A stretch of DNA of 64,000 bases, from the NCBI RefSeq assembly GCF_006345805.1, contig NC_042997.1, positions 187,860,001-187,924,000 of the forward strand. Reading direction: 5' to 3'. Below are positions 9,064-12,100 of this stretch, piece by piece; position 1 is the stretch's first letter; each line of letters starts with the position of its first letter. This DNA is from Octopus sinensis. Taxonomy: Eukaryota. Position numbers: made by a program.

Positions 9064-9119
<56 letters not shown>

Positions 9120-12100
9120 AAAGGGCTTAGTAAAATAATTACTTTGCCGCATACTGAACTCGTTAGAAATAGCAGCTAAAAAGACTATTTCTAACACTTA
9201 AAGAAAACCTCTCTCATATAGTGTTTGCTCAATTCAACTCAAGAAAGTATGAGGGTAGAGACATTAAAAAAATCAAATGCAAAGGTTATTTGAGTACGTA
9301 CGTTTCAAGATTAGCCAAAATCGACCCTTCTCTCATCAGCTCAGAATGCCCTTGTTTGAATTTGAAAACACTGAAAATGGGAGCATACCCTTTCGGCTTG
9401 TTATCGCTTCAGAAGATCTGTTCCAAACTAACAGTGCCAACAAACTCAAATATGCAAGAGAAAGATTTCTGCTCTCCCCTAAAGAGAGGTTTTCTTTAAG
9501 TGTTAGAAATAGTCTTTTTAGCTGCTATTTCTAACGAGTTCAGTATGCGGCAAAGTAATTTATTTTACTAAGCCCTTTTATATAATGTAATAATTTGAAT
9601 TTGCCTTAAATGGTCCCTTTGCATACTGAATACTTGGTGAAATTGATTAATTAATTAATTAATTTTACCCTCAATTGTTGAAATTATAATTCATCTCTCT
9701 CTACTTAATTGTCTCGGATTTTACCGAAAAAAGCATAGTGTTTGCTGATTTTAACCCACGCTGGTGGAAAGGGGAGAGCAGAAATCTTTCTCTTGCATAT
9801 TTGAGTTTGTTGTCACTGTTAGTTTGGAACAGATCTTCTGAAGCGATAACAAGCCGAAAGGGTATGCTCCCATTTTCAGTGTTTTCAAATTCAAACAAGG
9901 GCATTCTGAGCTGATGAGAGAAGGGTCGATTTTGGCTAATCTTGAAACGTACGTACTCAAATAACCTTTGCATTTGATTTTTTTAATGTCTCTACCCTCA
10001 TACTTTCTTGAGTTGAATTGAGCAAACACTATATGAGAGAGGTTTTCTTTAAGTGTTAGAAATAGTCTTTTTAGCTGCTATTTCTAACGAGTTCAGTATG
10101 CGGCAAAGTAATTTATTTTACTAAGCCCTTTTATATAATGTAATAATTTGAATTTGCCTTAAATGGTCCCTTTGCATACTGAATACTTGGTGAAATTGAT
10201 TAATTAATTAATTAATTTTACCCTCAATTGTTGAAATTATATATATATATATATATATATAATATCTTTCTCGTTTCTACTTCTCCTTCTTGAGCGCATG
10301 CGCAGTATTTTTTGGTTACTATGGAAACAGTTCTTCGCAATCAGCTGTGCAACACATGGCGCTTCTTTGTTTTGGTTACTATGGAAATAGAAATTTTCGC
10401 TACGGTGATATGTAAAATACTCGCTTCTGATTGGCTAAAATACCCAAATTTTGCAAATTTTAAAAGCTAATAACTTTTTAATTATGGATTTATAGGAAAA
10501 ATTAATTTCATTTTCATAATTAGTATACAAAACTATCCATTAAGCAAATTTAAAAACAATTGGAATAAAATCGTAAACAGTGACGAAAGCCACTAGTTTC
10601 CTTGGATGCAACTATTTTACTCTACGTAATTGATCGGCCTGCTGCATGTCATTCATGAGTGCGTGTGGCTTAGTATCATATATCATACTTTCGCTAATTG
10701 TTTTGCGTAGTTGTGAATAGACACAGACGCAATCACCCCTTAACTCAGCGGCACATCTAGGACAGCTGAGGAGACAGAGCTGTACCCACATCCAGCTGGT
10801 ACTCATTTACAGCTAAGTGAAGCAACACCTTGCTTAAAGATAGATACTGCGTGCCGCTCGTTCAGGAACTGAGCCTACGACCTTATAATGGTGACCCGAA
10901 CACACTAACCCAAAGGTCACACTACAAATAGCATCCAAATTTCCATAAATCATCATCTACTGTCTTAGAGGAACGACATTTTGGTTTATATAGACCTAGG
11001 TATTCTATTTGGAAATAAAGACCAGATACTTACACCAACAAAAACTTACTTCAAATTTTATTTCAAGTCACGAGAGAGCTTCTAACGCGTCACTCGACCT
11101 GTCAGAAATAACAACCAAATCTACCTCACATTACATCTTACCATCACTGGAAAATAAGAGAACGATACATCTGATACTGAAATCATAGATATCTTTAAAT
11201 AGACAGGATAGTCATATCTGGAATGCCTTTGATCGTTAGTTTGCTCAGTGAAGGGTAACCTCGTCATAAACAATAATTTACTTCATGGCGTAAAAACCAC
11301 GTGTTTACAGTTGTATCTTTCCTACAAGTTTTAATTTTATCTAAGTTCCAAATGCTCTTTAATGATTGTTTCTCATCTATACTTCAGACATGACATCAAA
11401 GTTCAAATGAATTAATGTATGAGAAAGGTCTACAAACATAATGATGTTCTGAACCCTAGTGGAAGAAACTCTTGGAAACCACTTGAACTGTTGCACCCTT
11501 GAAATTTCAAGTCTTTGCCCATCAAAACAAGCTTATTACAGACGACACTTTGTAAACTAGAAGAAATAATTTTATTAGGTAGCAAAAGCTATTAATATGC
11601 AGGATGCATTCACAACTGATTTATTCTTATATTATCTACAAAGGAATCAAACAACTAGCCGCACACATCTATACCGGAAACTAGCTTACTGACATAAAGG
11701 CAGTCAATTACGACACCCTGTCACATAGGTCGAACTTGTGCAAAGTAGGGAAGTGATACATGTGCAGCAATATACATTAAAACACTATGGGGTTGTATGA
11801 AAAGAGATCTGTAGACATTGATATTTTTATTTAAGGTTACACACACGTACAGCCGTTTATCTTAATCGCCTCACATACTGACCTTTCAGCAGTCCATTTT
11901 ATCCCGCTTTCACGAATATTTTTCTTGTAAGACGAAAGAAAAGCAAAAGAAAAGATCTACAAACAAACTGACTCAGCCGTAGGTAAGGAGAGGACAAAAG
12001 AAATCGAGAAGCAGACAGAAAGATAAATAAAATAAAGACATAGAAGAAGGTGTCATGTGAACCTTTAACAGCAGCTAACAATATTTTGTTAGCACGTGGA

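What the first reader, a model, noticed from the sequence alone, without database searches (positions are those of the whole stretch)
9113..10240. 553-nt hammerhead retrozyme-like element with intact core and inverted + tandem layout
Seen: a non-coding unit with period 553 bp carrying a complete hammerhead (9907-9959), arranged as inverted copy, partial tandem copy and full unit inside (TA)n. The copies are almost identical, so the insertion looks young. Known: Penelope-like elements carry minimal type I HHRs in their pLTRs and form partial-tandem and inverted structures; non-LTR retrozymes are HHR-bearing tandem repeats that yield circular RNAs. Inference: this is a non-autonomous retrozyme copied from a circular or multimeric RNA by a Penelope RT. 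Read-through across the 9688/9689 junction is what a circular template predicts.
Basis: partly seen in the sequence, partly recalled or inferred. Interest (0 to 1): 0.88.

Follow-up and report, generated by a model that had tools for sequence, protein, structure and literature searches.

The report
Young hammerhead-bearing Penelope-style retroelement insertion
A 1.13-kb piece of non-coding DNA carrying a hammerhead ribozyme motif was recently copied into a TA microsatellite in the tangled pattern typical of Penelope-like retroelements, which makes it a likely new example of an already described kind of mobile element.

Summary
The layout is real. Window 9111-10241 is one insertion inside (TA)n, built from a single 553-nt non-coding sequence:
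- an inverted copy, 9111-9480 (unit positions 452 to 82);
- 2 filler bases;
- a partial direct copy, 9483-9688 (unit 348-553, 100% identical);
- the full unit, 9689-10241.

The motif at 9907-9959 has every invariant hammerhead core base, three helices and a palindromic helix III region. Chance gives about 0.017 such motifs per 64-kb window.

It is not textbook. The pair 10.1-11.1 is G-U, the stems are short, and no Rfam hammerhead model matches it at any threshold.

The unit RNA is unusually self-paired, z about -5.4 against 0 of 31 control segments at or below -5.4.

Best reading: a young, dead-on-arrival copy of a non-autonomous Penelope-type or non-LTR-retrozyme-type element, made by reverse transcription primed from both target DNA ends at TA-rich sites. 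This kind is already published (PMC4209133, PMC7229834, PMC8557442, bioRxiv 10.64898/2026.07.22.740005).

A circular template is possible but not shown. The 9688/9689 "junction" is only the period boundary. The locus has one sense hammerhead, so it cannot release a monomer. No genome-wide check was possible.

The parts
8300..9066 (+). Context: a 5'-truncated LINE copy ending in a (GAT)n tail. The (TA)n target lies just after this tail.
   Evidence: Its 3' part recurs at 6 other places in the window, all ending in a GAT repeat or a degraded one. Two of them lie just 3' of the reverse-transcriptase ORFs found.
9071..9110 (.). Left part of the (TA)n microsatellite that received the insertion.
   Evidence: TRF row 9071-9119; sequence read.
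9111..9480 (-). Inverted, truncated copy of the unit (unit positions 452 down to 82). Its outer end lies at the unit's longest TA run.
   Evidence: BLASTN 99.2% over 373 columns. The global alignment shows 1 substitution and 1 single-base indel. TA runs are listed.
9291..9343 (-). Hammerhead motif of the inverted copy, identical to the sense copy. Predicted cut between 9295 and 9294 on the minus strand.
   Evidence: Descriptor hit; identity shown in the alignment.
9481..9482 (.). Two bases at the head-to-head join that match neither copy (filler).
9483..9688 (+). Partial direct copy (unit 348-553), acting as a pseudo-LTR. It has no hammerhead. Its inner end lies next to a TA run (unit 342-346).
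   Evidence: 206 of 206 bases identical to 10036-10241; TA runs.
9689..10241 (+). Full 553-nt unit: 34% G+C, non-coding, strongly self-paired as RNA.
9907..9959 (+). Type I hammerhead-like motif. Helix I has 4 bp, with 6 more at 9896-9901 paired to 9965-9970. Helix II has 4 plus 5 bp. Helix III has 2 bp inside an 8-nt palindrome. Predicted cut after 9955.
   Evidence: There is no Rfam match.
10242..10262 (.). Right part of the (TA)n target.

Best explanation
This is a young, inactive genomic copy of a short (553 nt) non-coding retroelement that carries a type I hammerhead ribozyme. It belongs to the Penelope-like / non-LTR retrozyme kind of element.

Inferred mechanism:
1. An RNA longer than one unit served as template. 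It was uncut, or religated, at the ribozyme site.
2. A break in a (TA)n microsatellite exposed two DNA 3' ends.
3. The bottom-strand end annealed to a TA-rich stretch of the RNA (unit 550-553). It primed a cDNA of 1.37 units, now 10241 back to 9483.
4. The top-strand end annealed to another TA-rich stretch (unit 444-452). It primed a second cDNA, which now reads as the inverted copy 9111-9480.
5. The two cDNAs were joined head to head with 2 filler bases.

The enzyme was most likely the reverse transcriptase and endonuclease of an autonomous Penelope-like element acting in trans.

The ribozyme has a very short helix III inside an 8-nt palindrome, so it should cut efficiently only when two copies pair as a double hammerhead in multimeric transcripts. 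This locus has a single sense copy. It is therefore a product of the cycle, not a source of monomers or circles.

Shown: the segment layout, the breakpoints, the motif, the self-pairing and the lack of coding capacity.

Inferred: the RNA intermediate, priming from both ends, the identity of the reverse transcriptase, and any catalytic activity.
For: Layout and near identity of the three segments.

(TA)n on both sides.

Breakpoints. Three of the four (unit 348, 452, 553) lie within 3 nt of one of the unit's four TA runs. Those zones cover 7.2% of the unit, and simulation gives P about 0.0015 for 3 or more of 4 by chance.

Ribozyme site. The sequence is continuous across it in both copies, so the template was not a cut monomer.

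Hammerhead motif.
- All invariant core bases are present.
- Chance rate is 34 hits in 2001 shuffled windows, which is about 1.5e-4 for a 553-nt unit on both strands. None of the 34 had a palindromic helix III region.
- With the core kept unpaired, the best fold forms helices I and II. The full hammerhead structure lies 2.2 kcal/mol above the minimum free energy.
- Two molecules co-fold into a double hammerhead with an 8-bp helix III at -39.2 kcal/mol, against 2 x -13.9 for monomers.

Self-pairing of the unit RNA.
- z -5.40, with 0 of 100 shuffles as stable.
- z -5.75 when folded as a circle.
- Controls: 31 other 553-nt segments of the window have a minimum z of -2.15.

No Pfam family in the unit's ORFs.

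Literature seen.
- Penelope-like insertions are 5'-truncated partial tandems, often with an adjacent inverted 5'-truncated copy and a bias to microsatellites, including (TA)n (PMC8557442, passages).
- Minimal hammerheads occur in Penelope pseudo-LTRs. Pairs of them are found 100-700 bp apart on opposite strands; here the gap is 564 bp. Helix III is short and palindromic (PMC4209133, text parts 1-2).
- Animal non-LTR retrozymes are low-GC, non-coding and highly self-paired (PMC7229834, passages).
- Their consensus lengths run from 51 to 972 bp, and monomer derivatives are common (bioRxiv 10.64898/2026.07.22.740005, Results part 1).
Against: - No Rfam hammerhead model matches, even at E up to 10 on 101 nt.
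- Pair 10.1-11.1 is G-U, whereas PMC4209133 lists G10.1-C11.1 as highly conserved in these motifs.
- The extra base between positions 9 and 10.1 that the same paper lists as conserved is absent.
- The 80-nt ribozyme region is no more stable than shuffled sequence.
- There is only one independent sequence, so no covariation test is possible.
- No Penelope-type ORF (reverse transcriptase plus GIY-YIG) was seen in the window. 19 of 27 ORFs of 110 aa or more were scanned. The reverse transcriptases found are LINE-type.
- The hammerhead lies in the unique part of the unit at this locus, not inside the 206-nt repeated part.
- There is no second copy in the window and no eukaryotic genome to search, so repetitiveness and mobility are unproven.
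- The fourth breakpoint (unit 82) is not at a TA run.
Confidence: 0.6

Rival explanations
1. One reading: the template was a covalently closed 553-nt circular RNA (a retrozyme circle), copied by rolling-circle reverse transcription. This is a sub-case of the best explanation.
For: - The direct part is longer than one unit (759 nt, or 1.37 units).
- Both outer ends lie at internal TA-rich sites rather than at one defined RNA 3' end.
- The ribozyme site is continuous in both copies.
- The unit is strongly self-paired when folded as a circle, z -5.75.
- The published model has circles giving cDNAs longer than one unit (PMC7761336, passages).
Against: - Nothing in the locus separates a circle from a multimeric linear transcript, or from an end-to-end template jump.
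- The 9688/9689 junction is defined only by the right end.
- Rolling-circle copying would need displacement of the enzyme's own cDNA.
- The inverted copy overlaps the direct copy by 105 unit positions (348-452).
- No tandem source array with two or more hammerheads has been seen.
Confidence: 0.3
2. The element is a SINE-like RNA mobilised by an AP-endonuclease LINE, and the inversion arose by twin priming as in L1. The hammerhead-like motif is incidental or decayed.
For: - LINE reverse transcriptases with endonuclease domains are the only ones found in the window.
- Truncated LINE copies are frequent there.
- Inversion by priming from both ends is known for L1 (recalled, not checked in a paper here).
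- No Rfam hammerhead hit.
Against: - The unit shares no sequence with the 3' end or the (GAT)n tail of the window's LINE family.
- It has no A-rich or GAT tail.
- More-than-unit tandem copies are not a usual LINE product.
- The motif's chance rate is about 1.5e-4 per unit, and its palindromic helix III was never seen in 34 chance hits.
Confidence: 0.1
3. The structure is a DNA-level rearrangement, or an assembly artefact, at an unstable (TA)n tract. It would be an inverted and tandem duplication by replication template switching, or a chimeric long read, and not a retro-insertion.
For: - (TA)n tracts are fragile and form hairpins.
- Craig et al. note that such structures cause assembly problems.
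- The only differences between copies are one substitution and one homopolymer-length change, which could be read errors.
Against: - It would not explain why a foreign, highly structured, hammerhead-bearing sequence sits inside the microsatellite at all.
- It would not explain why three breakpoints fall at the unit's own TA runs.
- The pattern matches a documented retro-insertion architecture.
Confidence: 0.07
4. It is a cut-and-paste DNA transposon or MITE with a TA target, or a Helitron.
For: - The flanks are TA.
- There are long internal inverted repeats.
Against: - The two actual ends of the insertion are not inverted repeats of each other. The right end extends about 100 nt beyond the inverted arm.
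- There is no transposase ORF.
- The ends lack the Helitron termini (termini recalled; sequence read).
Confidence: 0.03

Closest known systems
Metazoan non-LTR retrozymes (Cervera and de la Pena 2020, PMC7229834; Li, Clavereau and Pollet 2026, bioRxiv 10.64898/2026.07.22.740005)
   Same: - Non-coding, low G+C (34%), with a type I hammerhead.
- The RNA is strongly self-paired.
- Unit length lies within the reported 51-972 bp range.
- It resembles the "monomer derivatives" described as non-transposing offspring.
   Different: - There is no array with a ribozyme in every unit: one full unit plus a partial copy without the ribozyme.
- The unit is longer than the 170-400 nt circles described in invertebrates.
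- An inverted copy is attached.
- Circular RNA is not shown.
Minimal hammerheads of Penelope-like element pseudo-LTRs (Cervera and de la Pena 2014, PMC4209133)
   Same: - Short helix I, extended helix II, and a tiny palindromic helix III that implies action as a dimer.
- Two motifs a few hundred bp apart on opposite strands.
   Different: - G-U instead of the conserved G10.1-C11.1 pair.
- No extra base between positions 9 and 10.1.
- Helix III is present (2 bp plus a tetraloop), so it is closer to the 'canonical metazoan' type.
- No Penelope ORF is attached.
Penelope-like element insertion architecture, and non-autonomous Penelope-like elements such as those of the Chlamys clade (Craig et al. 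2021, PMC8557442)
   Same: - Partial tandem forming a pseudo-LTR.
- An adjacent inverted 5'-truncated copy.
- Insertion into a microsatellite, with (TA)n named as a preferred target.
- Non-autonomous derivatives that form pseudo-LTRs and head-to-tail copies are described.
   Different: - The (TA)n bias is stated there for Naiads, which lack canonical hammerheads.
- No 30-40 bp 'tail' is recognisable here.
- Similarity to an autonomous partner could not be tested.
Newt/salamander satellite hammerheads that cut as dimers (as summarised in PMC7229834)
   Same: A weak helix III capped by a palindromic loop. Co-folding predicts a double hammerhead.
   Different: - Those occur in very large tandem arrays of about 330 bp.
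- The sequences are unrelated as far as can be told.

Membership tests
Hammerhead ribozyme, type I | Invariant core bases: C3 U4 G5 A6 N7 G8 A9, G12 A13 A14, the A15.1-U16.1 pair, and H17 not G. | tested here: met
   Read. The descriptor hit is at 9907-9959.
Hammerhead ribozyme, type I | Three helices around the core, with the open end in helix I. | tested here: met
   Helix I has 4 bp plus 6 bp, helix II 4 plus 5 bp, helix III 2 bp. They are weak: the region is no more stable than shuffles.
Hammerhead ribozyme, type I | A G10.1-C11.1 pair at the base of helix II. | tested here: not met
   The pair is G-U. Both copies share it.
Hammerhead ribozyme, type I | A match to the curated covariance models (the Rfam hammerhead families). 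| tested here: not met
   No hammerhead hit at gathering score or at E up to 10.
Hammerhead ribozyme, type I | Self-cleavage at the predicted site, and covariation among copies. | not testable with these tools
   Only one independent sequence is available, and no wet assay is possible.
Non-LTR retrozyme | Tandem repeats with a type I hammerhead in each unit. | tested here: not met
   There are 1.37 direct units with one sense hammerhead. The partial copy 9483-9688 lacks it.
Non-LTR retrozyme | Non-coding, low-GC unit of a few hundred nt. | tested here: met
   553 nt and 34% G+C. No Pfam family in the unit's ORFs.
Non-LTR retrozyme | Highly self-paired RNA. | tested here: met
   z -5.40 linear and -5.75 circular. 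None of the 31 control segments reaches this.
Non-LTR retrozyme | Expression as monomeric circular RNA. | not testable with these tools
   No transcript data are available.
Penelope-like element insertion (non-autonomous) | Partial tandem (pseudo-LTR) with an adjacent inverted 5'-truncated copy. | tested here: met
Penelope-like element insertion (non-autonomous) | Microsatellite target. | tested here: met
   (TA)n lies on both sides.
Penelope-like element insertion (non-autonomous) | Hammerhead located within the pseudo-LTR. | tested here: inconclusive
   At this locus the motif (unit 219-271) lies outside the 206-nt repeated part. The extent of the repeated part depends on where each insertion was truncated.
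Penelope-like element insertion (non-autonomous) | Sequence similarity to an autonomous element (reverse transcriptase plus GIY-YIG) of the same genome. | not testable with these tools
   No eukaryotic genome collection is offered. No such ORF appeared among the 19 of 27 window ORFs scanned.
Penelope-like element insertion (non-autonomous) | Multiple dispersed copies in the genome. | not testable with these tools
   There is one locus in the window. There are no matches in plasmids or in prokaryotic genomes, neither of which bears on this question.

The most novel reading that the evidence does not exclude
This locus may be a nearly unmutated snapshot of a retrozyme circle being integrated by Penelope-type machinery. 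In that reading, both ends of a break in (TA)n annealed to TA-rich patches of a circular hammerhead RNA and primed reverse transcription. One cDNA ran more than once round the circle. That would be locus-level, mechanistic evidence for two things so far inferred from co-occurrence and pseudo-LTR similarity: which enzyme moves animal retrozymes, and that priming works by microhomology anywhere on the circle rather than at a defined 3' end.
Probability: 0.2. Interest if true: 0.55.

Novelty: new member of a known kind. Interest (0 to 1): 0.35.

Why it matters
If other copies confirm it, this family would add a 553-nt hammerhead element to the known Penelope-associated or retrozyme repertoire.

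Its almost undamaged insertion shows breakpoints at TA microhomologies on both sides. That is a useful concrete case for how these elements are primed and why they land in microsatellites. Craig et al. name the cause of the tandem/inverted structures and the microsatellite bias as an open mechanistic question (PMC8557442, passage seen).

On its own, a single locus of a class reported in thousands of copies in many animal genomes is ordinary.

Tried and rejected
Rfam scans gave no hammerhead and no other ribozyme family. I ran the whole window at gathering score, 8900-10500 at E up to 10 and 9885-9985 at E up to 10. The weak hits (snoRNA, pestivirus UTR, miRNA) are AT-rich or low-score noise, and I rejected them.

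A bare core pattern (CTGANGA, a gap, GAAA) is not informative alone. It gave 11 matches against 5.87 expected, and 4 of 100 shuffles reached 11. None of the other 9 matches passed the helix descriptor.

Coding capacity.
- Open frames of 74-108 aa inside the unit have no Pfam family. The best hit was PyrI at E 0.085, which I rejected.
- One search covered 10 of the 20 ORFs of 70 aa or more that overlap 6500-13000. The 7 from the neighbourhood gave nothing meaningful; the only listed match was DUF7925 at E 0.28 for 8308-8592.
- I scanned 19 of the 27 window ORFs of 110 aa or more. The 8 not scanned are 31678, 56326, 58122, 58595, 59516, 59749, 60282 and 60292. They lie within or beside the two LINE loci (31353-32822; 56311-60698), and all are on the opposite strand to the LINE ORFs.

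Strand choice from folding was inconclusive. The plus strand folds 19 kcal/mol better than the minus strand, but so do its shuffles, and the z-scores are alike at -5.4 and -5.8.

Searches outside the window.
- The unit against PLSDB plasmids in distant mode gave no match.
- An exact 49-nt ribozyme string against the prokaryotic genome collection gave 0 matches.
- Neither collection could be expected to hold an animal repeat.

There are no tRNA genes in the window.

- The search for homologous proteins and the search of protein representatives;
- the viral contigs and metagenome contigs collections;
- any eukaryotic genome or repeat library.

As a result, genome-wide copy number, permuted starts, tandem source arrays and the presence of a Penelope-like element all stayed unchecked.

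Supplementary files of papers are closed. The hammerhead alignments in the supplements of PMC4209133 and PMC7229834 could show whether this G-U, long-helix-II variant is already catalogued.

I did not try to identify the organism or the assembly. Structure prediction, complex prediction and the atlas were not used because no protein is at issue.
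Full report
**What is there**

The stretch 9111-10241 is a single block of foreign sequence inside a (TA)n microsatellite. The microsatellite appears as TRF row 9071-9119 and as the right-hand TA run 10238-10262. The block is made entirely from one 553-nt sequence, which I number u1-u553 = 9689-10241.
- 9483-9688 repeats u348-553 at 206 of 206 bases.
- 9111-9480 is the reverse complement of u82-452. 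It differs by one substitution (9437 versus 9813) and one single-base length difference in a T run.
- The two bases 9481-9482 match neither copy.

BLASTN of the unit against the whole window found only these three segments. All other hits were 24 nt or shorter, with E of 0.029 or higher.

**The hammerhead**

I wrote a descriptor with these requirements:
- helix I of at least 4 bp;
- CUGANGA;
- helix II of at least 3 bp;
- GAAA;
- helix III of at least 2 bp, counting A15.1-U16.1;
- U, then a base other than G.

It finds only 9907-9959 (+) and its copy 9291-9343 (-). Dinucleotide shuffles of the window gave 5 hits in 300 and 34 in 2001. That is 0.017 per window, or about 1.5e-4 for one 553-nt unit on both strands. 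Ten of the 34 chance hits had a helix II of 4 bp or more. None had a helix III region that is a perfect palindrome, as the real one is (8 nt).

Folding results:
- Folding of 9893-9972 forms helix II (4 bp, an internal loop, 5 more pairs) and helix I (4 bp, a 5x5 internal loop, 6 more pairs).
- The complete hammerhead structure costs -11.7 kcal/mol, against a minimum free energy of -13.9.
- Two molecules co-fold into a double hammerhead with an 8-bp intermolecular helix III at -39.2 kcal/mol.

This is the behaviour described for amphibian and Penelope-type hammerheads that act as dimers (PMC4209133, text parts 1-2; PMC7229834, passages).

**Evidence against the hammerhead**
- No Rfam hammerhead model matches at gathering score, or at E up to 10 on 1.6 kb or on 101 nt.
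- The base pair 10.1-11.1 is G-U. PMC4209133 lists G10.1-C11.1 as highly conserved, and also an extra base between positions 9 and 10.1 that is absent here.
- The 80-nt region is no more stable than shuffles: z +0.32, and 122 of 200 shuffles fold at least as well.
- The two copies are identical, so no covariation can be counted.

I take the motif as a probable but unproven ribozyme of the short-helix-III, dimer-dependent kind.

**The unit as a whole**
- It is 34% G+C.
- Its open frames (74, 93 and 108 aa) hit no Pfam family.
- As RNA it is far more self-paired than expected. z is -5.40 with 0 of 100 shuffles as stable, and -5.75 when folded as a circle.
- 31 other 553-nt segments of the window range down only to -2.15.
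- The minus strand scores alike (-5.77), so the folding does not tell which strand matters.

**Context**

The left flank 8300-9066 is a 5'-truncated LINE copy.
- Its 3' part recurs at 6 other places in the window, all ending in a GAT repeat or a degraded one.
- Two of those copies lie directly 3' of ORFs with RVT_1. One of these two ORF clusters also carries the endonuclease/exonuclease/phosphatase domains.
- (TA)n follows the tail in 2 of the 7 copies.

So the microsatellite is a plausible pre-existing target. No GIY-YIG or Penelope-type ORF was found among the 19 of 27 ORFs of 110 aa or more that I scanned.

**How it most likely arose**

Four breakpoints define the block: u553 (right end), u348 (inner end of the direct part), u452 (left outer end) and u82 (inner end of the inverted part).
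- The unit contains four runs of alternating T and A, at u109-112, u342-346, u444-449 and u550-553.
- Three of the four breakpoints lie within 3 nt of such a run.
- Positions that close to a run make up 7.2% of the unit.
- Three or more of four random breakpoints would fall there with P about 0.0015.

The polarity fits target-primed reverse transcription from both ends of a break in (TA)n. The bottom-strand 3' end primes at u553 and copies leftward through u1 and on to u348 of a preceding unit. The top-strand 3' end primes at about u452 and copies to u82, which then reads as an inverted copy.

The sequence is continuous across the predicted cut site in both copies. The template was therefore uncut or religated there.

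This architecture is what Craig et al. describe for Penelope-like elements: a partial tandem, an adjacent inverted 5'-truncated copy and a microsatellite target (PMC8557442, passages). Cervera and de la Pena report pairs of minimal hammerheads 100-700 bp apart on opposite strands. Here the gap is 564 bp.

**What is not shown**

The template may have been a circle, a multimeric linear transcript, or two RNAs joined by a template jump. With 1.37 units, the 9688/9689 junction is merely the period boundary set by the right end, so it does not favour a circle.

The locus has one sense hammerhead. It therefore fails the retrozyme layout of a ribozyme in each tandem unit (definition seen) and cannot release a monomer. 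It resembles the 'monomer derivatives' that Li et al. regard as non-transposing offspring.

The reverse transcriptase is inferred from architecture alone. A LINE enzyme with twin priming is a weaker alternative, because the unit shares nothing with the window's LINE 3' end.

**Comparison and novelty**

The following are already in print:
- hammerheads in Penelope pseudo-LTRs (PMC4209133);
- non-LTR retrozymes (PMC7229834; review PMC7761336, passages);
- non-autonomous Penelope-like elements with pseudo-LTRs (PMC8557442);

The unit length lies within the 51-972 bp range reported there. I therefore rate this as a new member of a known kind.

Its modest value lies in the clean breakpoints at TA microhomologies. 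These bear on how such elements are primed and why they land in microsatellites.

**Limits**

No eukaryotic genome, repeat library or transcript data could be searched. The protein and metagenome searches and the paper supplements were closed. A plasmid search and a prokaryotic genome scan were empty, as expected. Copy number, source arrays, partner element, cleavage and circularity all remain open.

Noticed in passing
window 60852-61661: A second partial tandem, of period 525. 60852-61059 matches 61377-61584 at 99%. By eye the match continues to about 61643, where it abuts a short (TA)n. It lies just 5' of the minus-strand LINE ORFs, so it is probably 5'-UTR monomers of that LINE. My descriptor finds no hammerhead in it.
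   Followed up: partly
window 57827-60698 (-) and 31353-32822 (-): Two LINE-type reverse-transcriptase loci. The first is a run of broken frames with endonuclease/exonuclease/phosphatase matches upstream of RVT_1. Both carry RVT_1 followed by weak PHD/C1-like zinc-finger matches. Tandem repeats of 61-79 bp lie in the 3' region of the first (56472-57093).
   Followed up: partly
window 8881-9066 and six other sites (30244-30429, 34117-34283, 39636-39773, 52503-52671, 55424-55604, 56311-56495): A family of LINE 3'-end fragments, 69-78% alike. All end in a GAT repeat or a degraded one. A (TA)n run follows the tail in 2 of the 7.
   Followed up: partly
window 10290-10440: The right flank of the insertion holds a GCGCATGCGC palindrome, two copies of a 21-nt repeat 60 nt apart (10310-10330 and 10370-10390, 95%), and a CCAAT-like GATTGGCT. 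Together they look like a promoter-like cluster. The motif meanings are recalled, not tested.
   Followed up: no
window 42579-42623: A short interstitial run of CCCTAA-type telomere-like repeats (TRF period 14).
   Followed up: no
window 18904-19463 and 23855-24265: Inverted repeats of 178-240 nt at 87-90%, about 4.4-5 kb apart. They belong to a repeat family that also matches 8300-8530. They may be two opposed copies of a SINE-like element, or the ends of a larger element.
   Followed up: no
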